DNA of 56,583 bases, counting the filler, from Catajapyx aquilonaris (taxonomy: Eukaryota): the NCBI GenBank assembly GCA_000934665.2. It is 2 parts of 2 records of this genome, joined end to end, with 100 filler letters (N's around TTAATTAATTAA, not from the genome) between each part and the next. Parts side by side here need not be neighbours in the genome. Positions count along the whole stretch, not along the records: positions 28,380 to 56,583 come from JYFJ02004954.1; 1 more part is not named here. One strand, written 5' to 3'. The position numbers and the translations under genes were made by a program. Below the pieces are notes generated by a model that was not told where the DNA came from, did not search any database, and saw only the letters and a list, made by a program, of their open reading frames with translations. Below are positions 27,424 through 56,583 of the stretch, piece after piece (positions within the stretch are counted from its first letter, which is position 1; each line of letters starts with the position of its first letter).

Positions 27424-27467
27424 CTTGTACCCGTAGTCTCACGCACAGATTGTGGTAGCCGTAGAAG

Positions 27468-27682: not shown

Positions 27683-27686
27683 AATA

Positions 27687-27804
27687 TGTTATGTCCGGAT
27701 ACCGAGGAACTGCTGAATGATACACTACGCCATCTTTGCTACTCACTTTATTTCTTTTGTTTTACTCCGAGAGGTGCTGCCACCTGTCTGTATAATGCCT
27801 AACA
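27687..27804 (-). repeat. 5' LTR (118 bp)
   Basis: TGTTATGTCC...GCCTAACA with TGTTA/TAACA terminal inverted repeat. Confidence 0.95.
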
Positions 27805-28279: not shown

Positions 28280-28379
28280 NNNNNNNNNNNNNNNNNNNNN
28301 NNNNNNNNNNNNNNNNNNNNNNNTTAATTAATTAANNNNNNNNNNNNNNNNNNNNNNNNNNNNNNNNNNNNNNNNNNNN
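28280..28379. other. Artificial scaffold gap linker (N44-TTAATTAATTAA-N44)
   Basis: Exactly 100 bp, symmetric Ns around an all-frame stop cassette. Confidence 0.9.
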
Positions 28380-28980
28380 CACATACGCTCGGCCTCCTCA
28401 ACACCTCGCCGCTGGGCGCCCTTCCTCGTGATTGGAATCCGCTCCACACCCACCTGCCCTGCCGCAGCCAATCGGGTCTCCAAGTCCGCACGCTCGTTGC
28501 CAACGACCCCGGCGTGTCCCCGCACCCAACACAAACTCACCCTGTCCCGGGCCAGCCTTAGAAGCTCCTGAGCATATCGTACTGTGTCGTCATACGCGCG
28601 GGGATTGCTGATGGCCTGCAGAGCAGACAACGAATCGGATACGACCCACGTGACCTCGCCTTCAGAGGCACGCTCGCCCACAATCTCCAAAGCCCGAACG
28701 ATCATGCGGAGCTCAACATCATAAATTTCCACCGAGCCATGCCTCTCACACAACAGCACCCGATCGTCGCTGTTCATGCCAACCACAGCTCCCCCCGCGT
28801 TCACTCCCCGAGTCAGGGACCCATCCGTGTACAATAGGAGATCCACCCCTACGGGCATCCCCATCCACGTCTCCAGCTCCACCCGGACCCATCCCCAGGG
28901 AGGAACGCTTCCCAACTGCCGATAAGCAGGCGGGGCCACCTCCGGCGACACCAGGAGATCCCTCCGCGCCTCCTACCCCG
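28380..28980 (-). mobile_element. 5'-truncated non-LTR element fragment encoding RNase H (R1/I group)
   Basis: LLYTDGS..., ELRMIVRAL, VSDSLSALQAISNP, WVRGHAGVVGNERAD; similar to the RNase H of the elements at 41-54 kb. Left end lost in the gap; right boundary approximate. Confidence 0.85.
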
Positions 28981-33800: not shown

Positions 33801-36800
33801 TCATGAGAGAGTTAGTTTGATTATTACTTTGGGCATTGTGTTCTGCCCATGTATTTTCTGGCAAATAATGATCCGCGTTACGGACTTATTCAATGGTGCA
33901 TTCTTGGAAGTTGCATTCCAGCGGCATTGGGACATGTTGTCCACGCAGGTACTATATCGCCCAAAAAGATAGAGACGATTTTGCATTTGACTCAAGTGCA
34001 ACTTGCACTTGAATCAAAAACCAATCGTCTCTATCTTTTTGAGCGATATAGTACATGAGCTCACATCAGTACATGAGCTGGACCTTCGCCTCGTCTTCGT
34101 CCAGAGCCGTGGCCCTGCCATACAACTGATTGCGAGACACGTCGTGGCAGGTCTTCTGATATATGTCTTTGCTGGGGTTCTCATCCACTGCCTGCATACT
34201 TTTTGGGATAAATGTATGGTTTTATGTTAGTCGTTGTTTATCCAGGGTATGCCCAGGTATGCTTCTGCACCACCATTGCATCCTTATCCATTTGAAGATA
34301 TTGGATTCGTGCCATCCATCTGATACCAAGGAATGATTGAGTCATGCTTCCATTTCTTTATTTGCAAGTATTAGTTTCACATTCAGCCGATACGAATTAT
34401 TATATTAGTCAGATGGCCATAGTAAATCGGGTACTTATACTAATGTGGATATTGAGATGGGCGGAAATTGCACAGCTATGCTGTTGTATGAATTGCAGTC
34501 AATGGTATGAAAGGCAGAGGACGCTGCATTTTGTCTTTTGTGCTCCGAAATTTCCATCCACCCATCATGTTAACTGTTTCCTCTTACATGTAATATTTTC
34601 TCTGTCGACTGCAGATGAAAGGTTTAAAATATGCCGAGAATTGATGCAAGGCAGTACCAATCTGACGTGCAAGCTGAACTAAGCCAGTTATTTTGATGTA
34701 CAAAGGATTTTACCGTACGGATTCGTTCCATTTTGTCGCTTTTGGTACGGAAAAGACCTTCAATTAATTAATAAACCAAAAATATCGTGATATGTAATTA
34801 ATGATTTTTCAAGTGGCAGGTCTAATTGCTCCGCATTGTGTTGGAAACTCAAAAGAGAGGCGAACATTCGCAGATAAATTTATTTGCATTTTTAGATAAT
34901 AGTTTGAGAGTTTTTACACCTGTTTGAAACTTACAGTGGCATGTTTAGAAGTGAAATGTATGTCTAATTGGAATTTTCGTCCCACTGTTACCTGTTCGAC
35001 GGTTTCACTATTTTGCACCCATGGATATTAGGTACAACTGCAATGATTACTATTATTATCTTTGTCGGAATTTCAATCATGTATGGGCACGATGCACTGT
35101 TGTGGTTATTTAAATGCAGTGATTGGATCTTACATGTCATTTTGTGAAATATTATTGCATACAATAGGCCGGAATCCTTCAATTGTTAGCAGTACATTTG
35201 GACTTGCTGTGTTAGTCGGGGCATTGCTTTCCAATCCTAGCAGAATATTTGCGCGTCGTTTCGAGTTTTAAATGGGACATTTGGAAAAAAATGTTGCGTC
35301 CTATGTGGTCCTAAATATGTCCTGCTTTTTATTTCAGTGTTGGAAGAACGGGTGTCATTACTCTATCTGCTTCTGCCTTAAACAGTCTTGCATTACGAAC
35401 CCAATGACCGTGAATTTTGAGGTTGAGGCTATAAAGTTAAGAAAGAATTAAATAAGAACGTGGTTATCTTTCGTGGGTGCAAAAATATACTAAGTACATT
35501 TCTATTTTACTGCACATTTAAGCTTCGGAAGTACATGTAGAAATTCAGCTGCATTTGTTACAACAATGCCAAAAATGCAAATTATAACTGCAATATTCTT
35601 CTTCCACTTGTACTACTTCCACTTTATCGAGGGCCAAAGTCGTTGGGGCGTTGGTCTAGCCTACGTAAATTCCAACGTAGACTCCCAGTGCTTTTCATCG
35701 GCCTGATCCACTCGATCGGTTGACTCTACTATTATCTGTAATTGTGTCATGTCACTATATGTAATTTCAAGTGTAAATGTACTTGTGACTGGAGAACTCA
35801 AAGCCACACGTGACGCTCCAACATACAACTGTCAGTGAGAGAAGCAGGGCTCGTCCAGTTGCAGCCCAGCCACCTTCAAAGTTTGCCCCCGAGACTTGTT
35901 GATTGACATGGCGAAGCTGAGCCTTACAGGGAATTGGAGCCTCCTGGACTCAAATGGCAAGTCCGTCGGGATGACTGGAATTCTGGGAATGTGGACGTCT
36001 TCTTCCTTGCCACATCCCGAGAGAATTGTAGCCTGGATGACATGGGGCGTAAGAGTTTTGACAGCAAGTCTAGTGCCATTGCAGAGTCGGGGTGGATCCA
36101 TGCTGCGAATGAGCATAATGGGAGTACCCATTTTTAAAGTGAGAGAATGAGGTGGGACTCCAGGAGGTTCTAGTGAATTGAGAAATTCTGTTGGGTAGTG
36201 CACCACCTGGGCCTCGTCTGGGACTGTGTCCACAGACTTGTAGCAGTGGGAAGGACCAGGTAGTTGGTTGAGGAGTTGTGCGTTCATAAGATTGACGGCG
36301 TTGTTTTTCGGAGCTAATATTGCTCTCACACACAACCAACTGTGTCTCTGGTGGTTGAGGTAAAGATTGGGAAAGACCTTAAATTTCAACTCTACGACAG
36401 AGGACACCTTTGTACCGATCAATCCCATGTCAACACATTTCCTAGGGCATCGGATCTAAACTGGCCATTTCCTAATTTCAACAGGTCACGTGCAAATTCC
36501 TCTGAGGAGTAGTCACCAAGCAGATAGGCCCTCATGTTCGTAGAGAGATGGAATTTGATAACATGAGTCCAAAGATACGAAGACTTTAGGCAAGCTTTTA
36601 TCTCATCGGCTCGTGTGCCTCGTGGAACAACAGGCTATGTCTGTCTGAAGTTACTCCGCCCATAATCTTTTTGCATTCCCGGATATCCTGCAGTGACCTG
36701 TCCAGAGCTTCAAAAGCTGCTTTGTGGGACATGGTGCACTCATCCCAAACAATTAACCTGCACTGACTCAAAGGTTGTGCCACTCCGGTACCCTTGCTGA

Positions 36801-39770: not shown

Positions 39771-41016
39771 CGTCTTGCAAACGATGCTGTGGTGTATGCG
39801 ATGGAGAGGGAGGAATAGCGGACAACGGGGAGTATGGTATAAGGATTTCCTTCTTCCAGATTTCATCATAGTCCGACTTAATTTCAATTACGTCAGGGTC
39901 AGGTGACGTGATGATTGGAGTCGTGGTCCTTCTCTTCCTTGCTTTTATTCTCAGGAGGGACCCTCTCTGGAGCGACTTTCTCTGGAAGGTCCTTCTTGTC
40001 TCTCTTGTCCTTCTTGGCCTCTTTGTCGAGGAGGGGATCGAGAACGGGGTTCTTGTTCTGCTCAAATGGCTTATTGAATTTTTTCCGTATCCCCGGCATG
40101 GACGCAGTCCCCTCTTCTGTGGCCGATGTTTTGGTCTTGGTCTTCTTCTTATCTGGATTTTATTCTCCGAAGAGCTCCCTCCATTTTTTATTTATTTTTC
40201 TGTATTTCTGATATAGGTGTTGTAGTGGTGGCACGTAGTGGTGGCACGTGTTGTTCCCACTGTTGTAGCCGATGTTGTGGGTGCTGCTCGCTTTGATCCC
40301 AAGGGTGTTGGATTAGTGCTTTTTCTCACCGTGGGATCGGTGAGTATATGGTGATAATAAGTGATGGAGGCGCGGGGTGGATGTGACTATTGGCTTTTAT
40401 GAACTTCTTTGAGATAGGATTTAGGATGGGGAGTTTATTCTGCCTTTTTGCTATTTTCTGGTGCACCCTGTTTCCCGCCCTGTTCTTCTTAGGCTTCTTT
40501 AGCAGGGATAGACTGGTGGTTGGATAAGGGGGAACGGGATCCATGGTGTATGGGAAGAAATGTGGTGGAGATGCGGGAGTATTTTCCTGCCTCCTTTGGG
40601 TTTTTTTAAAAGGATAGGCTTTGAATAAATTACTTATTTAAGCCGCTTTTTGGATTAGGTGTATGGTTATAGGCTTGAGATGGCTCATCCGCTTAGTTTT
40701 TTTTTTTTTTTTGGCACTCCAAGTTGGAGGAAGAGTTGGTTTATTCTTTATTGGACCTACTGAGGTAGTAGGTTTACATGTGGGTAGGCATGTGCCGCAA
40801 TGTAGTTACTTCCGTGGTCTGAGATTATGTAGATGCAGGGGTTTCTTGGGTTTAGTGATATTCTCTTTTGGGGGTGTAATGAGGGTGGGGGTGGGGTTTG
40901 TGACACAGGGGAGGCGTGGGGTGTGATCTGGTTCTACTGGAAATGTGATGTTGGGTAGTATTTCCTGAGGCGATCTCGGTGAACCAAGAAGACCAGGAAG
41001 GACCAGCGAGACAGGA

Positions 41017-41322
41017 AGGACCTTCCAGTGAAAGTCACCCCAGAGAGGTACCTCCTGAGAATAACATGGCCCCATGGCCCTATGACCTTTTCCCGGCGTG
41101 CAGAGGTCAACTCGCGAGATTCCAACTTATCTTCTTCAAATTTTGTGGGTAGGGAGTCCACACCAAGGGATGAAAGACGCAACTCTGCCCTCTCTGACCA
41201 CAAAATTTGAAGAGGATCGGATGGAATTTCGAGAATTGACCTCTGCACGCCGGGAAAGGGGTCACATGGTCATGTTATTCTCAGGAAGGACCTCTCTGGG
41301 GTGACTTTCTCTGGAAGGTCCT
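41017..41322. repeat. Long inverted repeat (arms ~41017-41148 and ~41198-41322, 49-nt spacer)
   Basis: aggaccttccagtgaaagtcaccccagagagg...tcttcaaattttgtgg pairs with ccacaaaatttgaaga...cctctctggggtgactttctctggaaggtcct. A third partial copy lies at ~39945-40020. Confidence 0.9.
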
Positions 41323-41337
41323 CTGGAAGTGCCTTCC

Positions 41338-41437
41338 CGGGTACACGGCGGGAGTAGCTGTGACTCTGTTGAGGCTTCTTGATGCCTCTCCGGCTCTTTG
41401 GCGACGCACCTGAGCGCATTAACGAGATTCCCACTGT
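41338..41437 (+). pseudogene. Isolated, diverged 28S rRNA fragment spanning the R2 and R1 insertion-site region
   Basis: Gap-free alignment to the conserved 28S stretch CGGGTAAACGGCGGGAGTAACTATGACTCTCTTAAGGTAGCCAAATGCCTCG...ATTAACGAGATTCCCACTGT (recalled). About 76/100 identities by hand, with the last 20 nt identical; no rDNA similarity seen upstream. Confidence 0.8.
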
Positions 41438-41446
41438 ATGCCGCGC

Positions 41447-42609
41447 GGGTAAAGTCCCACTCTGGGATCGCCGGGAATGATCTGGCAGATGAGATAGCGA
41501 GGGAAGCCGCCTCCGGAGAGGGAGGAGTACTTCATCAGCTGCCCGCCTCCAGGGCTGTACGGAGAGGTGAATGGAGGGCGGCGTTGGCGACAGCCTGGCA
41601 GGAAAGATGGGATCTCAAGGGTAATCCGTGGCCCAGGAGCTTTCTTCCCGTAGTTTCAGGGAAAGCCCACATCCATGGTCATATAGCACGGATGATAACG
41701 GACCACGGCCCCTTTTTGGGATATTTGGCCAGGTTCAAACTGCTGGGGGACAGGTGGGCATGCGGGGGAGCATGTCCCTGTGGTCAGGGAATTCAGGAAG
41801 CCGAACATCTCCTGTTGGACTGCCTGCTGCCAGTAGTGCTGCAGGCTCGTCTTGAACTTCTGAGTGCGTCGGTGAGCGCGGGCGACGGCTGGCCGCCCTT
41901 GTGGTCAACCCTGGTTCATCGAAGCCTGCGGGCCTTTAATGTCTTTTGTTTAACTGTAGACTCATACCGCGCGGAGGAGAACGTAGGTTGAGATTTGAGG
42001 CGGATTGATTGAGATTGTCTCTCATTTAAAGATATTCACTCGCGGTCAGCTTTCTTTTATTATTCTGTTCGTGGATTTCGGGGTCAGGAGATGCTCTTGT
42101 TTTAGTGGGTTTAAATTTTTATTCTGGCGGATAATCCGTCATCGTTGTTTAACTTGTGCGGACGGCTCCGACCCGCCTGGCGTTTGCGTGAGCGCGGACG
42201 GGATTGGTAGGTGCCGGGGTGGCGCCGCTTTGCTGATGGGGTCCGGCTCACGTCGTGGTGGCCGGACGGGCAGGAGCCGTCCGTGGTTTGTGTTGCATCT
42301 CCTGGCTTGGGGTTGTGATGTTTTTGATTGTTGAGTCTCAGTGTTGAGTGTTTAATGTTGGCTGTCAGTCTCTTTCTTTTCCGGCATAATTTGTTTATGG
42401 CTTTATTTTCTCACTTAATGAGGTTTTGTTTTGGAGGAGATATTTGAATTCATTTGAATGCTGGGACTATCGCTCTTCAAGCGTTGAATTAGTATACTCA
42501 TGATGCCATGTCGGCGAGTACACAGTCTCCTTGTTGATATTTTAGGACCCTGATCGGGTCAGGGGGTGAAAGGCTATGCCGGGCCGCCCCCTTTAAAATT
42601 AACTTTCAC
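41447..42609 (+). mobile_element. R1-like unit A, 5'-truncated (end of RNase H, CCHC finger, 3' UTR)
   Basis: RVKSHSGIAGNDLADEIAREAA...CPCGQGIQEAEHLLLDC, stop at 41991; distinct subfamily with its own 3' UTR. Confidence 0.85.
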
Positions 42610-42612
42610 TGT

Positions 42613-45402
42613 ATGCCGCGCACCCCAATTGGGGAACTTGAGCAGGCCGCGGAGGACTTCCAAAAGCTGTGTCTCTCGGCTGCCCACGAGAATATTCCTA
42701 GGAGAAAGGTCGCTGCTCGAGCGGCGGCCTGTCAATTTTGGTCCCCAGAATTAGGGCGACTCAGACGAAAAGTGAGGGCAGCCCGGCGAGAGTGGCAGGC
42801 GGCTCGGGGTCGTGGGTGTGGCTTGGAGAGAGAGCTCCACCGAGGTTGGCGTCAGGCAGCCAGGACGTTCAAGAAGGCGATCGTCACCCACAAGAAGGTC
42901 AGCTGGGAGAAGTTCTGTGAGAGGGAATCTCGGAGGGATCCCTTCTCCCTGCCGTACAAGATTATCAGGGAATCCTTCGGTCAAAGAGTGACCAGTACGG
43001 GCGGAATTGAGGCCCAGGTCGGGACCAGCATGGCACAGCTAGACACAGCCCTGATTGAGAAGTACTTCCCACGAGACCCGGGTACTTGGGACCCTGGGAT
43101 CCTAACCATCAGGGACGATGTTGGGAGCGATACTGTGCCTCTGACCATGGGTGAACTGAAATCCGTCATTGCTGCCATGGACCCTCGTAAGGCTATGGGC
43201 CCTGAAAACTTGCCGCTCTCATGTTTAGCCCACATTCTCGAGTCAGCAGGCCAGTATTGGTTGGCCCTGCTGAACAGGCTGATGGGGGCATGGAAATTTC
43301 CACAGGCATGGAAGCTGTCCAGGGTTGTTTGGATACCCAAGGATCAACAGGGGGCCGTGAGGCCGTTGTGCCTGGCGCCTGCTCTGGGGCGGGTGTTCGA
43401 CAAACTCCTCAACGCAAGGCTCATGCATTGGGCAGAGAAGGAGCAAAGACTCCATGAGAACCAGTTTGGTTTTCGCCCGGGCCGAGAAGTGGTCGATGCG
43501 GTTGAAACACTCGTTGGCGCGATAGAGCGGGCTTGGGAACGCAAACATCATGGCCTCCTGATAAATTTGGACATTAAGAATGCCTTCAATAGTGTCCCTC
43601 ATCAGCAGGTTCTGCGGGGCCTGATCAAGAAGGGCTGTCCTCACGGTCTAATGGGCATAATCTCTGACTTTTTGGGGCCTCGCCAGGTTGTATTTGGGGA
43701 TCGTGAGTTTGTTATGGATCGCGGGTGCCCGCAAGGCTCAAGCCTGGGACCGGCCCTGTGGAATTTGTCGATGGAGGAGTGGTTCACACTCGCCGACGGC
43801 GTTCCCGGGGTCCGGCTGCAGGCCTACGCCGATGACCAATCAGTTTTAATAACGGGCCCGTCGGTCAAGGCCATTGAGGCCTCCTGGCATGAGGTAGAAG
43901 CAAACATTTCCCGGTGGGCACGGGAGATGCAGCTGGAATATAATCAGGGGAAAACTGAAGGATTGTTCCTCCAACGTCAAGGTTGGAGGCTGAACAAGAT
44001 CCGCCCCCCCGTTATCAGGATTGACGGAAAGGACCTAGAACTGGGTCGGCCGATTAGGACTCTGGGCATATATGTAGATAGCGGTCTGACGTGGATTCCC
44101 CACGTGGAGACCGCCGCGTCTAAGGCCAGGGATATGGCCTCCCGAATATGGCGTGTGGCTGGGCTGGGGTGGGGCATGACCCCCTCCAGCCGGCGAATGG
44201 TTTTGAGAGGGGCCATACTTCCTATGATCATGTTCGGGGCGGAGGTGTGGGGGATAAACTCACACACTCTGAGCATTAGACAGAAATTGATGTCGGCGGC
44301 TCGCCCATTCCTTCTGTCCACGACCAGGGCATACAGGACCACGGCCAGTGAGGCCCTCTGCGTGATGACCGGGATGATCCCTCTGGACATCCAGGCCAGG
44401 TCGGCATGGTGTATGCGTCAAGAGGTGTTGGGGTGTGCGGAGAGACTGTCTGTGGTCGGAGAAAGTACGATGGCACGACCACCGTGGGATCGCTTTGAGA
44501 GCAGAGTCGAGATTTGGGAACAAGATGCCGCCCCTGGGGGGTATGAGCTTTACACGGATGGTTCGGTCTTCCCGAGCATTGGCACGGGCGGTTCAGTCGT
44601 GGGCTTTGACCCCGGCGGCTCGGAATGCATCCGTGAGGGACTCACCTTTCCTGCGGGCACTACCATTTTCCAGGCGGAGCTGGCGTCAATAATTCGTGGC
44701 ATAGAATACGCGGCGGAGAGGGCGCTTGGCCCTCGCGTTCGCATAATATCGGATTCATACTCTGCTCTCCAGACCGTGGTGAATCCCCGTACCACTGACG
44801 GTCTCATCCAAAAGGCACAAAGGAGGATAATGGAAATGGGCAGCCCAGTCGAGCTGGCCTGGGTGCGAGGGCACTCGGGCGTGGCAGGAAACGAAGCGGC
44901 GGATGAGGTCGCTAAGGCCGCGGCGCATGGGCAGGGAACTCCACATGCGATGCCGACTCCTCGAGCGGCAATGAGGAAGGGTTGGAGAGTGGCCATGTTA
45001 GAGGATTGGCAGAAAAGGTGGGAAGAGCGAGGGAATGCCTGGCCGCGTGGCTTTCTTCCCGCCGTGTCGGATGAGGTACACTTGTACGGACCCGTGGCAC
45101 ACGTAATTACTAATCATGGCCCCCTTTTGGGCTATTTAGCGAGATTCCACCTCTTGGAGGAAAAGTGGGCATGTGGGGGTGCCTGCCCATGTGGCCGAGG
45201 CATGCAAGACTCGGAGCACATTATGTTTGCTTGCATGCTCCCGCAAATTCTCCCAGAACGGACTGCGCTTCTTGCGGCCTCTGTTACGGCGGGGGAGGGA
45301 TGGCCCCCGAACCGACGATCACTATTGGACTCAAGCAGTAAGCCGGCATTCATCAACTTTTGCCAAAGAGTGGTCCATTTTCTCGAGGAGGAAAATAAAT
45401 AA
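42613..45402 (+). CDS. ORF2 portion: reverse transcriptase + RNase H + C-terminal CCHC finger (929 aa open, no APE domain)
   Basis: KAMGPENL, QFGFRPGR, LDIKNAFN, GCPQGSSLGP, QAYADD, YTDGS, SDSYSAL, WVRGHSGVAGNEAAD, CPCG..SEHIMFAC. The ATG comes from the junction 12-mer. Confidence 0.85.
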   Translation: MPRTPIGELEQAAEDFQKLCLSAAHENIPRRKVAARAAACQFWSPELGRLRRKVRAARREWQAARGRGCGLERELHRGWRQAARTFKKAIVTHKKVSWEKFCERESRRDPFSLPYKIIRESFGQRVTSTGGIEAQVGTSMAQLDTALIEKYFPRDPGTWDPGILTIRDDVGSDTVPLTMGELKSVIAAMDPRKAMGPENLPLSCLAHILESAGQYWLALLNRLMGAWKFPQAWKLSRVVWIPKDQQGAVRPLCLAPALGRVFDKLLNARLMHWAEKEQRLHENQFGFRPGREVVDAVETLVGAIERAWERKHHGLLINLDIKNAFNSVPHQQVLRGLIKKGCPHGLMGIISDFLGPRQVVFGDREFVMDRGCPQGSSLGPALWNLSMEEWFTLADGVPGVRLQAYADDQSVLITGPSVKAIEASWHEVEANISRWAREMQLEYNQGKTEGLFLQRQGWRLNKIRPPVIRIDGKDLELGRPIRTLGIYVDSGLTWIPHVETAASKARDMASRIWRVAGLGWGMTPSSRRMVLRGAILPMIMFGAEVWGINSHTLSIRQKLMSAARPFLLSTTRAYRTTASEALCVMTGMIPLDIQARSAWCMRQEVLGCAERLSVVGESTMARPPWDRFESRVEIWEQDAAPGGYELYTDGSVFPSIGTGGSVVGFDPGGSECIREGLTFPAGTTIFQAELASIIRGIEYAAERALGPRVRIISDSYSALQTVVNPRTTDGLIQKAQRRIMEMGSPVELAWVRGHSGVAGNEAADEVAKAAAHGQGTPHAMPTPRAAMRKGWRVAMLEDWQKRWEERGNAWPRGFLPAVSDEVHLYGPVAHVITNHGPLLGYLARFHLLEEKWACGGACPCGRGMQDSEHIMFACMLPQILPERTALLAASVTAGEGWPPNRRSLLDSSSKPAFINFCQRVVHFLEEENK

Positions 45403-46291
45403 GACGGTTGCAGCCAGTGAGCGAAAAGGATTGGATGGATGCTCTGGAAGCAGTGGGGTGTCGGATCAAGGATGGACAGCTGCGGAGGTGCGCAGAATTT
45501 TAATCTGGTGCCAGTCCTGGTTCCCAATGAGGGATCCTAAGACGCAGTTAGACAAGCAGAGGTCCATGCTTGCGAAGATGAACACGCTGGGACTGACGGA
45601 GCGTCGGAAGGAGGATGGACAGCTGGGATGCAGCAGACAAGCAGAGGTCCATGTTTGTAATATATTGAAATAAATGTTTGAACCTTTTTTCTACGCTGGG
45701 ATGTGAAGTCCCATTATATGAGCAAGGTTGGGGCCAAAATCTTAAGGATGAGTAGCCTAAGTTTTACGGTTAATTATACCGAGTGGTACGCCCGCAATCT
45801 TTAAATTGTCCCCTTTGCCTCGGGCCACTGGCGGAGGCGGGGGCGCTGGCGGGACTTGGGCTGTGCTGAGGTGGTGTTGGTCTCCCGAGTGGGGCTGGGC
45901 CCTCGAGTAGTGGCCGGAGGTCCGAGGCAACGGGTGTTTTGTCTGGCCTCACCTATGCTCATTCTTTCTTTTTGTTTTAATTTGTTTGTGGGGCTTCCAG
46001 GAAGTGTTGCTTTCCTTATATAGTTTCTTCATCCGACATTTTCTTTTGCTGCCATTATCGGCCCCCGTCCCTCGGGACGGGGGTCGGACAGCCAATAGTA
46101 TGCCACTTACTGGATTATTGTTTTTGAAGGACCCATTTGAATTTCCTTGGATGCCAGGGACGGTTCGAAGTTGAAGAACACAGAATTAGGCGCCTTGGAG
46201 AGCGCACGGGGTCTCTCTGGATTTAGGGCCCTGATTGGGCCGGGAGGTCGAAAGGCAATGTCGGGCCGACCTCCCTAAATATACATTTCAA
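42622..46291 (+). mobile_element. R1-like unit B, 5'-truncated (lacks ORF1 and endonuclease)
   Basis: Closely colinear with unit D from ~50695 onward, including most of the 3' UTR. Confidence 0.9.
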
Positions 46292-46303
46292 TGTATGCCG
46301 CGC

Positions 46304-47710
46304 CTAGGTTCGGCCTGCTGGGAGACCGGGAGGCCTGCTGTGGCGCCTGCCCCTGCGGGCTAGGTATCCAGGACGCTCAGCACATTCTCCGATACTGCCG
46401 GATCCCGGAAGTGGTAACGGCCCGCCACAAGATGCTGGTACAGTCTGTTAGAGAGGGCCTAGGCTGGCCTTGCTCCGCCAGGACTCTGCTCGGGCGGGGG
46501 TTCTCAGCGTTTAATTCCTTCTGTCTGGAAATTGACCAGTTTTTTAGAGTAGAGAATGTCTGATTGATTGCTGCCTTTCCACACTATGTCGTCGCCTGCG
46601 GGAGTGGCTCCGTCCTGGCGGGAGTTAGTGGGGAGGCTCGCGGCGGGACCCTTGAGCTGCGGTGGTCCCTCTCCTTAGAGGGACGTGTCGGTAAACATCG
46701 GTGAGGAGCGGGCGTTCGGAGAAGTGGCCAGGGCGGCTCCCTTGTCCTGCGGGTGGGGGGGGGGGGTGGTGTCTCCCACAGGACTGTTGTTTCCAACATG
46801 GGCAGTTTTCGTTAAGGATCCTCTATCCGGGTCAGTTCCGGACATTTCTTTCTTTATTTTCTTTTTCTTAGGCCAGTTCAGGGGTTAGTTACCCCGGTCA
46901 AACCGGGTTTTATAGTCTTACGATTTTATTCAGGAGGCTTCTTTGGAGACCCTCAAAGGGGAACCGCCCCTCTCACCCGGCGTTGGCGGGGCGTGGTGTG
47001 AGCGCTCGGTCAGGTGCTGAGGTGGTGCCTCTCGGCCGAGCGGCCCGCCTCGTAGCTGTGGCCGGTAGTGGGGAGGGCGGGACCTAGCGTAGTGGGAAGT
47101 TGTTTTTAGGGTCTTAAGATTTTGGGTTTTTACTTGAGGGGTGCCTCCGGGGTGGTGAGGGGTCATGGTGTCCTCTTGGACCCCGTTGAGAGTCGTCCTC
47201 ATTTCGGCTCGGCGCTGGCGCTTACGCTGCCTGTTTCTTGTTGTCTTGTCTCTCCTCGGCTTGGCGGAGCCCCCCTTGGCCTCCGGTTAGGGTCGCCCCC
47301 TGCGCCCGCCGGTTTTCTCGGGGGCTCGTTGCGGGCCGGGGTTGTACTTCTGTGTGAGTTTGTGGCGTGCCCGCAGGCGGGCGTCATTGTCAGTAGTTAG
47401 CCTTCGCTTATTAATGTAGTGAGTAGTCCTTTCTTTCTGACTTTCTTTTTCTGGCATTTTCTTTTGGTCCCCCGTGCCCTCAGGGCCGGGGGGGGGCTCT
47501 GCTCTATTGCTTTCCACTTAATGGACCCTTTCTTTGAAAGACATATTTGTATTCAACAGCATGTCAGGGACGCCGTTTGCATCGCGGAGAATTAGGTACA
47601 CTAGACCCATAAGGTAAGTACAGGGTGTCTTACAGATATTTCAGGAACCTTGATAAGGTCGGAGGGCTTAAAGCTATGCCAGGCAGCCCTCCTTAAACAA
47701 TACATTTCCC
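46304..47710 (+). mobile_element. R1-like unit C, heavily 5'-truncated (CCHC finger + ~1.15-kb 3' UTR)
   Basis: RFGLLGDREACCGACPCGLGIQDAQHILRYC...ENV* (stop 46563); third subfamily with a different 3' UTR but the same terminal structure. Confidence 0.85.
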
Positions 47711-48298
47711 TGTATGCCGCGCCTCACGGACCACCCTAGTTTTGTGGTTCCTACGTCTTAGCCCAGCGTGGGTACTTGCGGCTGCTGGGCCTGAGTACCA
47801 GGGTGTCAACGTTGGAATTACTGCTGGGACTTAACCTCTGAGAGGGGGGAGGAGGTCTTTGTTTGGTTCGCGGCCGTCTTATTGATAGACGGTTCGTTGC
47901 CGGCATAACCGACTCCTGGATAGTGGTTCGAGACCGATCGGAGAATCCGAGACCTAGGTGAGAGCGGAGCGTCTTCCCGGCGCTCCGAGCGAGCCACAGG
48001 CCACAGGGCCCGGCTGGGATCGATTGCCAGGGGGTGCCCCTGGTCGTCGGCCTTGTCTGGAGTCCGGGTGGGGAGTGAGCGTTGAGGGGTCCCTAACACT
48101 ATAGGGAGTGCCCCTCCTCGCCGACTCAAGCGGACCGAGATAGCGGCCGCGCCCCCTCAGGGCCGTGGGTGGGTTGGTTTGATTTTGTTATATTGTCCGT
48201 ACCTTTTTGCTTTTTGTCTTGTCTCGTTACGTCTTGCCAACCTTTGTCGAGAGGAATCCCGTTAAGGAGTGAAAGGCCGTGTGAGTGAGAGCCACGGG

Positions 48299-49947
48299 AT
48301 GCCGCGAACGTCGCTAGATGGGAACTTTTCACCCACTAGGGCATTGCAGCACAACCCACCAGCCAAGGCCAAGGAGTCTCCACTGCTGACCTAGTCCTCG
48401 TTGGCGGGGTGGTCGAGGGGAGGAACAGGCTTGCCGCCTGCCCCTCAGGCCCCCAGACGCACCCTCTCTGTAGATAGAAAGGGCCGGAAGTCGAAGGCCA
48501 GGGACGATCCCAATGATGGTGAGGATCCAAAACGTGGAAAGGCTGCAAGTGGGGAGAAGAGCGACGAGACTGACGACCGTGGCAGTGACGGCGAAGACAT
48601 TGAAATTGATCTCGATGACTCGGAGCGGGGTGAGGAAGCGACCCAGGCGGAGAGCTCCGAACGAGGAAGTACTGAGAGCACGGCTCAGGAGATTCGAGCC
48701 CAGATTTTTGGGCAAGAAGTGGGAGGAGTCGGAGAAGACTGGCCTGAAAAAGAAAAGGCAATACGAGAACGCTTTGAGCTCACAGAAGGAGGACTGCAGG
48801 TGGAGGTCACGGTGCTCGTGGAGCTCGTGATCACTGCAGTGTCTCGAGAACAGGCTAGTAAGATATCAGTTACCCGGAGTGATCAGGCGGCCGCCAAGAA
48901 GGCGCTGTCTAGAATTAAAGATGCGTTTTAGGTGATGATCGGACGAAACCAGGCCCTGAGGGGGGAGGTAGCCTGCTTGACCGTCGAAAGGGATATGCGC
49001 CAAGAATGGCAAAAGGAATGCGCAGATTTGCGGAAGGAAGTGTCCGAACTGCGAAAAGCGGTGTTGAGCAGCCGCGGTAAAGGAGTCAACAATAAGCCCG
49101 CACTATCCACTGCCGGTCAGGCGGGACCTTCCGTCCCCCCTCGGGGGGCTAGTGGAGTGACATTTGCCGGAATAGTTGCGGGTCCGAGCCGTCCAGTGCG
49201 TGCGCCGGCGAGCCCTCAATTCCCGGTTCTGGTGGAGATTGCAGAAGATCAGGTGCCAACCCAGGCGTCGGTCAAAGCCATTCTGCGTACTAATATGCCT
49301 GAGGAGATATTAGAAGAAGGGTTTAAGGCAGCAGGAAAGATCAGGGGCGGATTTCGGGTGGCATGCCGATCAGAGGCCCAGAAAGGACAAGTAATGAAAG
49401 TGCTTACGGACAAAGGCTTCGCGGCACGAGAAGCGGTCCAGCGCAGACCGGCCCTTTCATTGGAGTCGAGGAAGGGTATTCAGATGAAGCATTGTTAGAA
49501 GAGCTCTCTGCGAAGAATAAGGCCCTTGTGGCTGACCATCAGCCACTTAAGAATCATGTCCGCATAGTTAGCGTCCGTAACTGGGCTAATACAGACCGCC
49601 AGAACTGGGTCCTTGAGGTCACGCCGGCGCTGCACGGCAAGATGTTAGAGTCTGGCAGTCTGAGGGTCGATGTTGAAATGTGTCGAGTGGAGGACATGGT
49701 CCGTACGGATCGATGCTTTCGCTGCTCGGCATATGGACACACGGCCAGATCATGTCGTGCCAAGGCTAGTTGCGGTAAATGTGCAGAAGAGCATGAGACT
49801 CGGGACTACACCTCGACCTTCACCTGTTGTCCTAACTGCAAATTGGCCGGTCTTGAAGACACAGGGCATGGGGCCTGGGCAGAAATATGCCCGACCTGGC
49901 AAAAGCGAAAACTACAATTGGCAAAACGTATCCATAATGGGTACTAA
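48299..49947 (+). pseudogene. ORF1 gag-like nucleic-acid-binding protein with three Cys/His knuckles
   Basis: ATG at 48299 (MPRTSLDG..) is in frame with ORFs 48401 and 48932 through TAG stops at 48392 and 48929; frameshift near 49455; CFRCSAYGHTARSC, CGKCAEEHETRDY, CPNC..H..C. Confidence 0.8.
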
Positions 49948-52900
49948 ACAGAATCGTTATTGGACAATTCAATGCCGACCGAGGCAGGGTATCCTCCGGT
50001 CTAGGCGTGGAATGGGGGTCGGTGAGGGGGCTAGACCTCCTCTGCCTGCAGGAGCCGCATGAGCTTACAGTCCGTAATAAGTGGAAATATCGCTCACACA
50101 TCTGTCAAAGAGGACAGATGGCATTGATTACATACAATCGAGGCCTGAGGGTGGTGTTTTTGCCTTCCCACTCTGGCCCAAAAATGGATAGTTTCTCAAT
50201 TGGGAGCGGAACGTCAGAGTTCCTGTTAGTGAATGTCTACTTCCCACCTGGGGAGAGAATTGACATCAGTAAAGAGTTAGATTCAATCGCGGCACTTCGA
50301 ACCGTTGGCCCTGTCGTGTTCTGGTCGTGGGCGACTTTAATGCGAGGCTGAGTTACTGGGGTGACCACGAGGAAAACAGCAGAGGGCGTGATGTGCTTGA
50401 CTGGGCCGTCGTGAATGGATTTGAGCTGTTGAACGACCCGTTCCAGGGGGACACGTTCCGTTCGACTAACGGTTCCAGTTGCATAGATCTCTCATGGTCA
50501 TATAAGTTACCGCAAGGGAATTGGACCCTGCACGATGAGCATTTAGATAGCCCCCATTTGGCCATCGAGATACGTCTCGGTACGGGGAGCCCCCCCCCCT
50601 GAAAGAAGTATGGGCCTGCTCTCGCGCTCATTGGGAGGACTATGAGAAAGATGTGGCGCTCGGAGTTTCCGGGTTGGCCGACCCAGGGGACGTCCCGGTT
50701 GAGGAACTTGAACGGAGTGCAGAGGAATTCCAGAAGCTGTGTCTCTCGGCTGCCCACGAGAACATTCCTAGGAACAGGGTCGCTGCTCGTGCGGCGGCCT
50801 GTCAATTTTGGTCCCCTGAACTAGGGAGACTTAGGCGCAATGTGAGGGCGGCCCGCCGTGAGTGGCAAGCGGCTCGGGGTCGTGGGGACGGACTGGCGAG
50901 AGAGCTCCACCGAGGATGGCGTCAGGCAGCCAGGAAGTTTAAAAGGGCGGTTATTGACCACAAGAAGGCCAGCTGGGAACGATTCTGTGAGAAGGAATCT
51001 CAACGAGACCCTTTCTCCCTGCCATACAAGATTATCAGAGAATCGTTCGGCCAGAGAGTGACCAGCACTGGCGGCATAGAGGGTCAGGTCGGAACCAGCA
51101 TGAAACAGTTGAATACTGCCCTGATTGAGAAGTATTTCCCAAGAGATCCGGGTACTTGGGACCCTACGATCCTTGTTACCAGGGACGACGCTGGAGTCGA
51201 CTCTGTGCCCCTCACCATGGGTGAATTGAAGTCTGTCATTGCTGCCATGGACCCTCGGAAAGCCATGGGACCGGAAAACCTGCCGCTCTCATGTCTGACC
51301 CACATTCTCGAGGCAGCGGGCCAATACTGGTTGGCTCTGCTGAACAGGCTGATGGGGGCATGGAAATTCCCAAAGGCATGGAAACTGTCCAGGGTCGTAT
51401 GGATACCCAAGGATCAGCAGGGCGCCGTGAGGCCGTTGTGCCTGGCGCCGGCTCTGGGGCGAGTGTTTGACAGACTCCTCAATGCAAGGCTCATGTATTG
51501 GGCAGAGAAGGAGCAAAGACTCCACGAGAACCAATTTGGCTTTCGCCCGGGCCGAGGAGTGGTCGATGCAGTTGAAACACTCGTTGGTACAATAGAGCGA
51601 GCCTGGGAGCGCAAACATCATGGCCTCCTGATAAACTTGGATATAAAGAATGCCTTTAATAGCGTCCCCCATCAGCAGGTTCTGCGGGGACTAATCAACA
51701 AGGGCTGCCCTCACGGATTAATGGGAATAATTTCTGATTTCCTGGGGCCTCGCCAGGTTGTATTCCGGGATCGAGAATTTGTAATGGATCGCGGGTGCCC
51801 TCAAGGCTCGAGCCTGGGACCGGCCCTGTGGAACTTATCGATGGATGAGTCGTTCACACTCGCCGCCGGCGTTCCCGGGGTCCGGTTGCAGGCCTATGCT
51901 GATGACCAATCAGTTCTCATAACGGGTCCGTCGGTCAAGGCCATAGAGGCCTCCTGGCTAGAGGTAGAAGTAAACATTTCTCGTTGGGCACGAGAGATGC
52001 AGCTGGAATATAACCAGGGGAAAACCGAAGGAGTATTCCTTCAGCGTCGGGGTTGGAGGCTGAATAAGATTCGCCCCCCCGTAATTAGGATTGACGGAGA
52101 GGAGCTTGACCTGGGTCGGCCAATCAGGACTCTGGGCATAATAATAGACAGCGGTCTGACGTGGATCCCCCACGTGGAGACCGCTGCAGCTAAGGCAAGG
52201 GACATGGCCTCTCGAATATGGCGTGTGGCAGGACTGGGATGGGGCATGACCCCCCCCCCCCCCCCCCAGTAGACGGATGATTTTGCGAGGGGCAATACTT
52301 CCTATGATAATGTTCGGGGCGGAGGTATGGGGGGTCAACTCCCATACTAAGAGCATTCAGCAGAAATTGATGTCTGCAGTTCGCCCATTCCTTTTGTCCA
52401 CGACCGGGGCGTATAGGACCACGGCCAATGAGGCCCTTTGTGTAATGGCCGGGATGATTCCCCTGGACATCCAGGCCAGATCGGCATGGTGCATGCGTCA
52501 AGAGGTGCTGGAGTGCACGGAAAGACAGTCGGTGGTCGGAAGAAGTACGATTGCTCAACCGCCATGGGACCGATTCGAGGGCAGAGTCGAGATCTGGGTA
52601 CAAGATGCCGCCCATGGTGGGTATGAGCTTTACACGGACGGTTCGGTCTTCCCGGGCATTGGTACGGGCGGTTCAGTCGTGGGCTTTGACCCCGACGGCT
52701 CGGAATGCTTCCGTGAGGGACTCACCTTTCCTGTGGGCACTACCATATTCCAGGCTGAGCTGGCGTCAATAATCCGCGGCATAGACTACGTGACTGACAG
52801 GGCGCTTGGTCCTCACGTCCGAATAATTTCGGACTCGTACTCTGCTCTCCAGACCATGGTGAATCCCCGGACCACGGACGGTCTCATCCAGGCCGCGCAG

Positions 52901-53481
52901 AGCACTATTAAAGAGATGGGCATCCCGGTCGTTCTGGCTTGGGTGCGGGGACACTCGGGAGTGGCGGGAAACGAGGCGGCAGACGAGGTCGCTAAGGCCG
53001 CGGCGCACGGACAGGGGACTCCGCGGGCGATGCCGGGCCCCCGAGCGGCAATGAGGAAGGGATGGAAAGATACCATGATGGCTGAATGGCAGAAAAGGTG
53101 GGAGGAGCAGGGGAATACCTGGCCGCGTAGTTTTATACCCACTGTTTCAGACGAAGTCCAGTTACATGGGCCCATTGCACATCTGGTTACTGATCATGGC
53201 CCCTTCCTCGGCTATTTGGCCAGATTCAATCTATTGGGGGAAAAGTGGGCCTGTGGAGGCGCCTGCCCGTGTGGCCGGGGCATACAGAATTCAGAGCATC
53301 TTCTTTTTGAATGCGTGCTCCCACAGATTCTTCCTGAACGGACTGCGCTTCTTGCGGCTTCTGTTACGGCGGGGGAGGGATGGCCCCCGAACCGTCAATC
53401 ACTGCTGATTTCGGGCAGTTGACCGGCATTTGTTAACTTTTGCCAAAAAGTGGTCCAATTCCTCACGGAGGAGAATAAGTG
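49937..53481 (+). pseudogene. ORF2: APE endonuclease, RT, RNase H, CCHC finger (frameshifts and one stop)
   Basis: IGQFN..DLLCLQEP, NVYFPP, GDFNA, SCIDLSW, SPHLAI (APE); QAYADD (RT); YTDGS (RNase H). Breaks near 50320, at poly-C 50590 and poly-C 52250, and TGA at 53420. Confidence 0.9.
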
Positions 53482-54284
53482 AACAACAATAATACCTGAG
53501 CAAGGAATAAAGAGGAGCCTCATGTAAAGAGGAGGAATTAAATTAAATTATAAATCAGACGCGATTGCGCTGAAGGAACATCAATCTGGTGCCAGTCTTT
53601 GTTCCCGCTCCAGGGATCCTAGGACGAAGAGCGGACGAGCAGACAAGCAGAGGTCCATGTTTGTAATACTTTAAATAAAGATTTGCGGGACGCAAAGTCC
53701 CATTACATGTATAAGGTCGGGGCCAAAATTTTGAGAACTAGTTTAATTTTTACGGTTCAATTATACCGAGTGGTACGCCCGCAACATTTAAATTGTCCCC
53801 TTTGTCTCGGGCGTAGGCGGGAGTGCTGGCGGGACTTGTGGCTGTGCAGAGGTGGTGCTGGTTTGCCGAGTGGGGCTGGGCTCTCGAGTAGTGGCCGGAC
53901 GTCCGAGGCAACGGGTGTTTTGTATGGCCCCGCATGTGTGTATCTTTCTTTTTGTTTTAGTTTGTTTGTGGGGATTGCAGAAAGTGCTTCTTTTCTTTTT
54001 GATTTTCTTTTTCCGACATTTTCTTTTGCGGTCTATATCGACCCTCGTCCCTCGGTACGCGGGTCGGACTGCCAATAGTATGCCACTTACTGGATTATTC
54101 CTTATGAAGGACCCATTTGTATTTCCTTGGATGCCAGGGACGGTTCTAAGTTGAGAACACAGAATAAGGCGCCTTTGGAGAGCGCACAGGTGTCCATCTG
54201 GATTTAGGGCCCTGATTGGGCCGGGAGGTCGAAAGGCTATGTCGGGCCGACCTCCCTAAATATACATTTCAATGTATGCCGCGC

Positions 54285-54697
54285 CCACGGACCGCCCTAG
54301 TTTTGTGGTTCCTACGTCTTAGCCCATTGTGGGTACTTGCGGCTGCTGGGCCAGAGTACCAGGGTGTCAACGTTGGAATTGCTGCTGGGACTTAACCTCT
54401 GAGAGGGGGGAGGAGGTCTTTGTTTGGTTTGCGGCCGTCTTACTGATAGGCGGTTCGTTGCCGGCATAACCGACTCTTGGATAGTGGTTCGAGACCGATC
54501 GGAGAATCCGAGACCTAGGCGAGAGCGGGGCGTCTTCTCGGCGCTCCGAGCAAGCCACAAGGCCACAGGGCCCGGCTGGGATCGATTGCCAGGGGGTGCC
54601 CCTGGTCGTCGGCCTTGTCTGGAGTCCGGGTGGGGAGTGAGCGTTGAGGGGTCCCTAACACTATAGGGAGTGCCCCTCCTCGCCGACTCAAGCGGAC
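54285..54697 (+). mobile_element. R1-like unit E: 5' UTR only, 3'-truncated
   Basis: Near-identical to 47725-48135; similarity stops after ...gactcaagcggac. Confidence 0.9.
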
Positions 54698-54701
54698 ACG
54701 T

Positions 54702-55125
54702 CCGTGAAGTTGGCACCGCCAGTCGTCGGAATTACCTGTCCAGTGATGTGGTCTAATTGTTCCAAGAGAGTTCCACATTGTTCCACCGCCAGTTCAATTT
54801 GTTCCAATCACGGAAACTTTTTATTTAAAAAATAAATTGGCGGTGCCAAGTTCACGACCGGCACCGCCAACTACATATTTGGCACAAAAAACGTTGCGGA
54901 TCGCTTGTTCTGACTGAGTTCCACGGTGTTCCACCGCCAGATCAATTTGTTCCAATCTCGTTAATTTTTTATTTAAAAAATAACTTGGCGGTGCCAACTT
55001 CACGGTAGCACCTCTAATTGCATAGGAGGGTCAAAACATTGGGGATCGCTTGGTCTGACTGAGTTCCACGTTGTTCCACCGCCCGATCAATTTGCTCCAA
55101 TCTCGTTAATTTTTTATTTAAAAAA
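54702..55125. repeat. Mixed tandem (~146 bp x3) and inverted repeat block, Foldback/MITE-terminus-like
   Basis: Perfect 20-bp IR CCGTGAAGTTGGCACCGCCA (54702) / TGGCGGTGCCAACTTCACGG (54986-55005); unit gagttccac..tgttccaccgcc..caatttg starts at 54768, 54916 and 55061. Confidence 0.8.
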
Positions 55126-55492
55126 CCAGCGACACTTACATGTATACAGTACCTGATACAGGAGTAGTCCACATTCCTTAACAATCCTGTGTTCAACATT
55201 GTATCGGCCGCAGAAGGGCAAGTTCCACCTGACGTTTGCAATTGACTGATTTTTTAAAAGCTCGAATTACCCGTCCCATGGGTCACCTTACGCAATTCAT
55301 GTGACTCAGACCTGACAATGCAATATAGTGTGCCTCCCAGAATTTTTCCAAAATGGAAAAAGTGTCAGTTTAAGAATGTATGAGGCAATAATCTTCCGAT
55401 CCCTATTCGGAATCAGGTACTGTACATAAGCGCAGACGTGTTTCCCAAAATGAAGCATTCCGAAGCAAATTGAGGACAAAAGTCGGTATTGT

Positions 55493-55559: not shown

Positions 55560-56300
55560 GGGGTGTGCAAAGACCTGCGGACTTACAAAAAAAAATGCTT
55601 CGAAGCTATGACAAGACCTTCATCACGGCTTCCTGGGTGCTTCATACGAAGAGATTTGACCCACCTGGCCACCTATTCAACAATGCCAGGAAGTGGAAGG
55701 TGTGGCAGAAAAAAGGAAACCGGGTCGTGAAAGACCACTATTTGCGTTGGCTATAGGTCTCCTAGTAAACGCAAATAACTATGAAGAGTTCACCAGAACT
55801 TTGTCGCACATCCTAACTGTGGCTTACGCTGAAACTTACCAGTGAGACAAGGAGGGAAAGGCAGTCCCTACAGACGAAAGCAAAAGCTACCTAATTGAGA
55901 AGATCAGCGGAGAAGAACCAGAATCAACAGAGAATGACGACCACTCATTCCCCCTGGACGTCTGTGACGAGCTGCATGTCACGAATGATACCCGAGACTC
56001 TGTAAAGTCTTGGCTGGAGGACATCAAGGAGAATGCCGAAAGACAAGCAGAGTATCATGGCACTGAACCAAATCCGTACTACTGCAGTGTTATTGCGAAT
56101 GAGTTTCTGAAAGAAGCTGCCGACTTCATGCTCTGGTCCTCAGTTCTCGTCGATAAATTCAACTCGCCATACAAGAGAGCTACATCAGCTAGCGTGGAGG
56201 GGGACTTCGCTGACCTGAAGGTGCTAGTTCTGAAAAATGAAGCAAAGCCACTGCCACTTCACAAACTCATAGCACATCATCTCAGGTCTATCAACGGTTA
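55560..56300 (+). pseudogene. Degraded transposase-like ORF resembling the NOF-FB (Foldback/MULE-related) protein
   Basis: Hand translation across frames: LPGCFIRRDLTH..RKWKVW..VKDHYLR..IGLLVNANNYEEF..ILTVAYAET..NPYYC..FMLWSSVLVDKFNSPYKRATSASVEGDFADLK..LIAHHLRSING. Family recognised from memory only. Confidence 0.6.
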
Positions 56301-56583
56301 GACGAACCTGGCTTCGGTGTCCGTCCTCACCAGCCGGGTTCAGCTCCCTCCTAAAGTTGATGCCAAAATCGAAACGAGGAGATGGTTGCGGGCTCGGCCG
56401 CCAGATGCGGAAGAGGCAACATCTAGTCCTGTTTTTCTGGAAGCGCATATGGTCTTGCATTACTACTACGTTCATTTTTCTGCTACTATGTGACAGAAAA
56501 AACTGAAATTGGTGCCCGATGTGTCCTACTACATTCATTCAAATGTCGTATTGTATTCAACTACGATCTACGGACTTGTCATG

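What the first reader, a model, noticed from the sequence alone, without database searches (positions are those of the whole stretch)
41435..54697. Five-unit head-to-tail stack of R1-clade elements from at least three subfamilies, every junction TGTATGCCGCGC
Seen: the identical 12-mer at 41435, 42610, 46292, 47711 and 54273. Units have different 5' truncation points (1.2, 3.7, 1.4 and 6.55 kb, plus a cut unit) and different 3' UTRs, so these are independent insertions, not a tandem duplication. Model 1: the 12-mer is a TSD regenerated at each insertion, with new copies entering at the left where the 28S-like upstream sequence is intact; the clean ORF in B versus multiple lesions in D fits a left-young gradient. 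Model 2: the 12-mer is the elements' own conserved 3' end, with ends (TTTCAC/TTTCAA/TTTCCC-TGT) mimicking TTCCCAC-TGT so they build their own target. R1 tandem arrays are known, but a multi-family array on a non-rDNA 12-mer is not known to me.
Basis: partly seen in the sequence, partly recalled or inferred. Interest (0 to 1): 0.8.

Follow-up and report, generated by a model that had tools for sequence, protein, structure and literature searches.

The report
R1 jumping genes stacked on one site
Five copies of ribosomal-DNA-targeting jumping genes from three families sit head to tail behind a stray fragment of the large ribosomal RNA gene; the 12 letters repeated between them differ at every other copy of these families found in the genome, so they are most likely the landing site duplicated at each insertion, a process already described in fruit flies.

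Summary
TGTATGCCGCGC occurs five times, between units of 1163, 3670, 1407, 6550 and 413 (cut) bases from three R1-type families (A; C; B/D/E). B and D are separate active lineages (dN/dS 0.12).

Model 2 fails. None of 19 intact 3' ends of these lineages elsewhere in the genome is followed by the 12-mer. Dispersed copies carry their own 9-15 bp duplications, and a second mixed-family stack is spaced by the host's 28S target.

Model 1 (target-site duplication renewed at each insertion) holds. It is the mechanism published for Drosophila R1 tandems, including mixed families and sites outside 28S. The 12-mer occupies the R1 position behind a 100-base, about 76%-identical 28S fragment, so 'non-rDNA' is only half right. 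Left-young order is partly supported.

Side result: this host's rDNA spacer carries tandem 28S-derived R1 targets and R1 3' ends, a possible source of the fragment. Three of five junctions are seen in short-read contigs of one sample; no long reads. Earlier scan notes cover R1/R2 remnants in this genome and a 28S-target satellite in another.

Verdict: new member of a known kind.

The parts
41335..41434 (+). Orphan, diverged 28S rRNA fragment ending at the R1 cut site (...ATTAACGAGATTCCCAC); single copy
   Evidence: Rfam RF02543 model 2222-2342, E 1e-6. 24 differences from the printed model consensus in 100 ungapped columns, none in the last 20 (counted by eye). One hit in the genome.
41435..41446 (+). 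Junction 1: target-site duplication TGTATGCCGCGC, in the position of the R1 duplication of 28S
   Evidence: R1Bm target ACGAGATTCCCAC/TGTCCCTATCTACT in PMC1919474
41447..42609 (+). Unit A: 5'-truncated R1-type element (end of RNase H, Cys/His motif, stop 41989-41991, 618-base 3' UTR); last 172 bases 99.4% identical to a module in the rDNA spacer
42610..42621 (+). Junction 2 duplication
42622..46291 (+). Unit B: 5'-truncated element, uninterrupted RT + RNase H frame to the stop at 45400-45402, 889-base 3' UTR
   Evidence: Pfam RVT_1 and RNase_H
46292..46305 (+). Junction 3 duplication; 14 bases (TGTATGCCGCGCCT) shared with junction 4
46304..47710 (+). Unit C: 5'-truncated element of a third family (85 C-terminal codons, 1147-base 3' UTR); closest to the first R1 at the 28S site of contig C2180
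   Evidence: 63% amino-acid identity over 81 columns; 78.5% DNA over 754 bases
47711..47724 (+). Junction 4 duplication
47723..54272 (+). Unit D: full-length, decayed element. 5' UTR, gag-like ORF1 with three Cys/His knuckles (to 49947), ORF2 endonuclease-RT-RNase H (about 49938-53482), 790-base 3' UTR. Broken by stops at 48929 and 53420 and by frame breaks near 49460, 50310, 50570-50610 and at the C-run near 52250-52270 (the last may be an assembly error).
54273..54285 (+). Junction 5 duplication (13 bases shared with junctions 3 and 4)
54285..54697 (+). Unit E: 5' UTR of a D-type element, cut off by a high-copy element with 20-base inverted repeats (54702-54721 / 54986-55005); the original right flank of the target is not on the contig
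42546..42600 (+). Conserved 3'-terminal RNA structure (two hairpins) of unit A; the same module ends B (near 46228-46280), C (47647-47700) and D (54209-54261)
   Evidence: 8 of 15 predicted pairs show changes on both sides in 17 ends; 92.9% of cells paired against 35-59% when slid

Best explanation
This is a stack of five R1-type retrotransposon copies from three families behind a stray 28S fragment, and the repeated 12-mer is most likely the target-site duplication renewed at each insertion. Shown: the 12-mer lies at the R1 position of the 28S fragment; other copies of the same lineages are flanked by other, locus-specific 9-15 bp duplications; B and D diverged as active lineages; all units end in one conserved two-hairpin module with no poly(A). 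Inferred from R1 biochemistry: the element's endonuclease nicks the bottom strand just before TGT, reverse transcription is primed there from the RNA's 3' module, and the top strand is cut 12-14 bases downstream. The target then reappears on both sides of the new copy, and the left copy keeps the intact ATTAACGAGATTCCCAC context, ready for the next insertion. Inferred order: E, then D, then C (C copied the two letters at D's flank), then B and A. A versus B, and B versus C, are not fixed.
For: 0 of 19 intact 3' ends outside the array carry the 12-mer. The genome holds 11 exact 12-mers: 5 in the array and 6 elsewhere, against 10 for the reversed control, and none of the 6 lies at an R1 end. D-family copies have duplications TGTCTGCCCCATCT (14 bp) and TGTATACGCTACACT (15 bp). 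Direct repeats of 9-15 bp begin at or near the 3' junction in 9 dispersed copies. Contig C2180 holds three R1 units of different families, each preceded by TGTCCCTATCCACGG, behind near-canonical 28S sequence and an R2 3' end. B versus D: dS 0.59, dN 0.072 over 924 codons. The RT tree puts B and D in a host clade (SH-aLRT 99, 15 rows) with the C2180 elements. D has 5-6 breaks in about 1730 codons and B none in 926 (P about 0.04-0.07). Published mechanism: PMC2718515 sections 13-15. R1Bm cut ACA!GTG: PMC1919474.
Against: The uninserted site was never seen: the right flank beyond E is lost and the 28S-like fragment is single-copy. The duplication is 12 bp at the two left junctions rather than the usual 14 (Drosophila range 8-14 in 28S). 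Only 3 of 5 junctions are seen in listed contigs, all from one sample, with no long reads. A and C are too short to date by lesions. The 'CT' shared by junctions 3 and 4 could also be microhomology with C's own sequence. The tree is the quick version and has no named R1 reference beyond one database label.
Confidence: 0.88

Rival explanations
1. The 12-mer is part of the elements' own 3' end, so every copy brings it and builds its own next target.
For: All four 3' ends in the array are followed by it. One D-family copy on contig C5864 is followed by a 10-of-12 match, TGTATGCCTCGG. R1 can carry up to 14 downstream target bases from read-through transcripts (PMC2718515).
Against: 0 of 19 outside 3' ends carry it. 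The A-type end that is 99.4% identical over 172 bases is followed by TGTCTGTATCT. Three families only 42-56% identical in protein would need the same invariant 12-mer. It also precedes the 5' ends and follows the 28S fragment.
Confidence: 0.02
2. The stack was built inside an rDNA locus, on a spacer-type duplicate of the R1 target, and was later moved here as a block. Alternatively the founder E brought the 28S-like piece and the 12-mer with it in a co-transcript.
For: The spacer behind the 28S 3' end (contig C8716) carries tandem 28S-derived R1 targets with a changed downstream sequence, and an A-type 3' end at that cut site. A displaced spacer fragment (C6881) shares TTGG, TGAG and GCATT with the window's fragment. 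The 10-of-12 match on C5864 suggests a repeated target type. This concerns where the stack formed, not how the 12-mer arose.
Against: No spacer-like sequence was found in the window's flanks. The fragment is equally far from host 28S, the spacer repeat and C6881 (17, 18 and 18 differences in 60). A target about 25% diverged alongside unbroken young units fits insertion long after the fragment left concerted evolution.
Confidence: 0.2
3. The array is an assembly artefact (related repeats joined through the shared 12-mer) or a tandem duplication that then decayed.
For: The assembly is fragmented (20,583 contigs); junctions 3 and 5 are not among the listed contig pieces; D and E share 138 identical bases.
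Against: Depth is near single copy along the array, and three junctions are crossed by 0-1-difference contigs. Units differ by 15-30% in DNA, with purifying selection between B and D. 5' truncation points differ.
Confidence: 0.05

Closest known systems
Tandem R1 arrays of Drosophila (Stage and Eickbush 2009, PMC2718515; passages and sections 13-15 read)
   Same: Head-to-tail R1 copies separated by the target-site duplication, formed by insertion into the duplication at the 5' end of a resident copy; R1A found upstream of R1B in D. ananassae; 118 non-28S insertions with 4-9 bp target identity and 3-14 bp duplications.
   Different: Those tandems lie mostly in rDNA with the canonical 14-mer. Here five units of three families sit on a single-copy, about 76%-identical 28S fragment whose 12-mer matches the host's 28S target in 4 of 12 letters. 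These elements encode RNase H.
R1 insertions into a 28S target duplicated in the rDNA spacer (D. ananassae 22-bp copy, PMC2718515 section 14 read; Nasonia, Stage and Eickbush 2010, recalled, not held in the library)
   Same: A copy of the R1 site outside the 28S gene attracts R1 elements of more than one lineage. This host's spacer has such copies.
   Different: The spacer copy here is a 139-base tandem repeat with a changed downstream sequence; the window's copy lies outside rDNA.
R1 satellite and TE dimers by double insertion in D. melanogaster (PMC5932611; passages read)
   Same: Insertion-site preference plus target duplication yields tandems, including 5'-truncated ones.
   Different: That array was amplified by unequal exchange to 91-273 junctions of one family; here each unit is an independent insertion and nothing is amplified.
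R1Bm and TRAS1 (R1 clade; PDB 2ei9, 1wdu; PMC1919474 passages read)
   Same: The endonuclease of the closest intact host relative matches TRAS1 (E 3e-9) and R1Bm (E 0.002). The cut AC|TGT fits the R1Bm consensus.
   Different: Looser targeting in this host: duplications start with TGT, AGT or TGG at unrelated loci.

Membership tests
R1 clade non-LTR retrotransposon | gag-like ORF1 with Cys/His knuckles | tested here: met
   Three knuckle motifs in D's ORF1, one altered; Pfam zf-CCHC E 0.016, below its cut-off; 48-55% identical to ORF1 of the 28S-site element on C2180
R1 clade non-LTR retrotransposon | ORF2 with N-terminal AP-type endonuclease and RT | tested here: met
   Pfam Exo_endo_phos_2 in D 50315-50566 (E 6e-13); RVT_1 in B and D. 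For the intact host relative, the endonuclease region matches only TRAS1 and R1Bm among PDB hits at E <= 0.01. D's own first 124 residues gave no useful hit.
R1 clade non-LTR retrotransposon | RT groups with named R1 references | tested here: inconclusive
   Quick tree of 36 rows: B and D group with host elements at the 28S R1 site (99). The only named row is a database label 'R1DM'-like (P0005); no outgroup clades were included.
R1 (28S-targeting lineage) | 3' junction at CCCAC|TGT of 28S with a duplication of about 14 bp | tested here: met
   The array's 12-14 bp repeat starts at that position of the 28S fragment; sister lineages sit at ...CCCAC with TGTCCCTATCCACGG
R1 (28S-targeting lineage) | Conserved 3' UTR end without poly(A) (conserved 3' segments: PMC3414825; lack of poly(A) recalled) | tested here: met
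   Ends read TTTCAC, TTTCAA, TTTCCC; covarying two-hairpin module in 17 ends
R1 insertion inside an rDNA unit | Flanked by intact 28S gene sequence in a multicopy unit | tested here: not met
   Only 100 diverged bases on the left, single-copy depth, no Rfam rRNA hit at gathering score in the window
Amplified TE-derived satellite | Near-identical units at raised copy number | tested here: not met
   Units differ in family and length; depth about single copy

The most novel reading that the evidence does not exclude
The host keeps tandem, 28S-derived copies of the R1 recognition sequence in its rDNA spacer as decoy targets. Their upstream 17-mer stays invariant while the rest diverges, they absorb R1 insertions of several families, and strays of them, like the one in this window, become multi-family sinks that record the order of R1 activity. 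Not excluded: ATTAACGAGATTCCCAC is exact in 4 of 4 rDNA-derived copies found in the assembly, while the neighbouring bases differ at up to 18 of 60 positions. In the window none of 24 differences falls in the last 20 of 100 columns (P about 0.002 if even). Against: only copies with an intact motif attract R1 or are found by a search for that motif, so ascertainment can explain this; spacer duplicates are already published for D. ananassae; no selection test was possible.
Probability: 0.12. Interest if true: 0.6.

Novelty: new member of a known kind. Interest (0 to 1): 0.27.

Why it matters
It is a clean natural example of R1 tandem growth outside the rDNA locus, where recombination does not erase old copies. 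It shows three R1 families, 42-56% identical in their C-terminal protein, using one degenerate target and one conserved 3' RNA structure. That is useful for work on R1 target recognition (the letters after TGT hardly matter in this host) and for dating family activity. It does not add a mechanism. The more open lead is the rDNA spacer with tandem 28S-derived R1 targets and R1 3' ends at high copy.

Tried and rejected
1. The host's complete 28S gene is not in the assembly as searched: the LSU family search found one 114-base fragment under the cut-off, with a stricter filter. The host target is therefore read from contig C2180, not from a full unit.
2. Rfam at gathering score found nothing in the window or in 8 loci. 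miRNA-like hits at 41091-41255 reflect a palindromic repeat.
3. A 14-base pattern with one mismatch gave background only (153 hits against 88 control).
4. No relative of unit A's body above 78% was found in the genome, so A could not be dated against a family copy.
5. No RNA holder was listed. The second sample X5 (32 million letters) gave one contig, depth 2, in which an R1-like end is followed by TGTATCCTGGC; too thin to use.
6. My first hand-written structure was out of register in helix 2; the RNAalifold structure was used instead. That structure was derived from these same sequences, so the slid control favours it.
7. In one search, four direct-repeat candidates were dropped as spurious: an internal 9-mer on C5864, a 12-mer offset 10 bases on C2761, and two at partial ends. 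Six intact ends gave no upstream repeat within the stretch held. The two 9-mers kept could be chance.
8. The careful tree did not finish; the quick tree is reported.
9. An R1-mobilised 28S-derived SINE as the source of the fragment was considered: no upstream copy of the duplication flanks it in the window or on C6881, so it was not adopted.
10. Eight literature searches found no report of a mixed-family stack on an orphan, diverged 28S fragment. Most subscription papers are not searched, and the Nasonia paper was not held. No supplements were read.

Full report
Observation. The 12-mer TGTATGCCGCGC occurs exactly five times in the window, at the stated places; about 0.006 are expected from composition. 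It separates units A (1163 bases), B (3670), C (1407), D (6550) and E (413). A, B and C are 5'-truncated. D is full length. E is the 5' UTR of a D-type element (96.6% to D), cut at 54697 by a high-copy element with inverted repeats. The contig ends with the window, so the original right flank is lost. Short-read contigs of one sample cross junctions 1 and 4 fully and junction 2 with 27 letters on the left, at single-copy depth. Junctions 3 and 5 are not among the listed pieces, and there are no long reads.

The units. B has an open RT plus RNase H frame. D has a gag-like ORF1 and an endonuclease-RT-RNase H ORF2 with 5-6 breaks. Over the last 85 codons A, C and B/D are 42-56% identical, and B and D 81%. 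B and D differ by dS 0.59 and dN 0.072 over 924 codons, so they come from separate active lineages, not from one copy duplicated in place. In a quick RT tree of 36 rows they fall in a host clade (SH-aLRT 99) with two elements of contig C2180. That contig holds an R2 3' end, an insertion with a TAAAC-repeat tail, near-canonical 28S ending in GATTCCCAC, and three R1 units of different families, each preceded by TGTCCCTATCCACGG. The intact ORF2 there matches the TRAS1 and R1Bm endonucleases. Database homologues are arthropod where named. All units end in a shared two-hairpin module with changes on both sides in 8 of 15 pairs across 17 ends. This fits recognition of the 3' UTR by the R1 protein, as argued in PMC3414825 (passages); binding itself is inferred.

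What the 12-mer is. The genome has 11 exact copies: five here and six elsewhere, against 10 for the reversed control. None of the six lies at an R1 end. Of 19 intact 3' ends of these lineages outside the array, none is followed by the 12-mer; the nearest is 10 of 12 on C5864. Two D-family copies are flanked by their own 14- and 15-bp duplications. Nine dispersed copies in all show 9-15 bp direct repeats at or near the junction; four other candidates were dropped as spurious and six ends had none in the stretch held. A 3' end 99.4% identical to A's is followed by TGTCTGTATCT. Model 2 is therefore refuted. The 100 bases left of the array match LSU rRNA up to and including the TGT, which is the R1Bm cut site (PMC1919474, passages). 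The 12-mer thus stands where the 14-bp R1 duplication stands in 28S.

Mechanism. Shown: position, locus-specific duplications, independent lineages. Inferred from R1 biochemistry: a bottom-strand nick before TGT, target-primed reverse transcription, and a top-strand cut 12-14 bases on, which renews the target at the left of each new copy. Stage and Eickbush describe this for Drosophila: tandems separated by the duplication, R1A upstream of R1B, and non-28S insertions with 3-14 bp duplications (PMC2718515, passages and sections 13-15). Double insertion as a general source of tandems is in PMC5932611 (passages).

Order. Junctions 3 and 4 share 14 bases and junction 5 shares 13, which fits C entering after D, and D after E; microhomology is an alternative. 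B is probably younger than D (0 breaks in 926 codons against 5-6 in about 1730; P 0.04-0.07). Junctions 1 and 2 read AC|TGT, like the 28S site and 5 of 9 dispersed targets. Junctions 3-5 read AA| or CC|, so entry near the left is likelier, but A versus B is open. The proposed mimicry of the target by the 3' ends is weak.

Origin of the target. The fragment is single-copy. It differs from the printed LSU consensus at 24 of 100 columns, none in the last 20 (by eye). Its source is unresolved: 17, 18 and 18 differences in 60 from host 28S, a spacer repeat and a displaced spacer fragment. Contig C8716 holds the 28S 3' end, followed by a spacer with R1-like 3' modules and a 139-base 28S-derived repeat ending GATTCCCAC|TGTCTGTATCT. 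Single contigs there have depths of about 1640-3150 for the 28S end and 840-1650 for the A-type module, against 16-38 in the array. The repeat runs on into itself, with summed depth above 24,000. Depth is a rough guide only, but it suggests that about half of the rDNA units carry an A-type end at a spacer target. A spacer duplicate used by R1 is published for D. ananassae and, as I recall, for Nasonia (not held).

Novelty. The mechanism, mixed-family tandems, off-target insertion and spacer duplicates are known. I found no report of this exact arrangement in eight searches, but a second mixed stack in the same genome shows that it is routine here. Verdict: new member of a known kind, interest 0.27. 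The decoy reading of the spacer repeats remains possible (0.12) but is confounded by ascertainment. An earlier scan note on a 28S-target satellite in another genome was also cautious about a decoy role.

Noticed in passing
L031:2343-5120 (G000:C8716): rDNA spacer behind the 28S 3' end, with at least three R1 3'-UTR-like modules and a tandem 139-base repeat derived from the 28S R1/R2 target region. The A-type module sits at the R1 cut site at about half the depth of the 28S end. The repeat's first hairpin stem appears to keep pairing through changes on both sides (by eye).
   Followed up: partly
G000:C2180 about 14600-32300 (L013, L032, L069), minus strand: R2 3' end, a short insertion with a TAAAC-repeat tail at a duplicated CTAATTAGCGAC (R4/Dong-like by position, recalled), then three R1 units of different families; the first has open ORF1 (459 codons) and ORF2 (1181 codons).
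   Followed up: partly
G000:C5864 (L025): D-family element followed by TGTATGCCTCGGGG and a second R1 5' end, with a further truncated R1 nested upstream in a 14-bp duplication starting AGT; the 10-of-12 likeness to the window's 12-mer is unexplained.
   Followed up: partly
L159 (G000:C6881 near 6300-7200): Displaced, diverged spacer fragment with an exact ATTAACGAGATTCCCAC, followed by other sequence and GC-rich spacer subrepeats.
   Followed up: partly
window 40985-41322: Long nested palindrome directly left of the 28S fragment; the inner arms are a multicopy repeat and the outer arms copy 39962-40025.
   Followed up: no
window 23242-27804: Ty3/gypsy element on the minus strand with 118-base terminal repeats 97% alike, an open gag frame and an open 1154-codon pol frame.
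   Followed up: no
window 54698-55149 and 55846-56301: High-copy element with 20-base inverted repeats and 148-base internal repeats that cuts unit E, then a 151-codon frame without Pfam match, possibly a transposase fragment.
   Followed up: no
window 35832-36455 (-) and 28328-28972 (-): Helicase-like fragment of Helitron type (recalled motif likeness) and an RNase H frame of another non-LTR element cut by the assembly gap.
   Followed up: no
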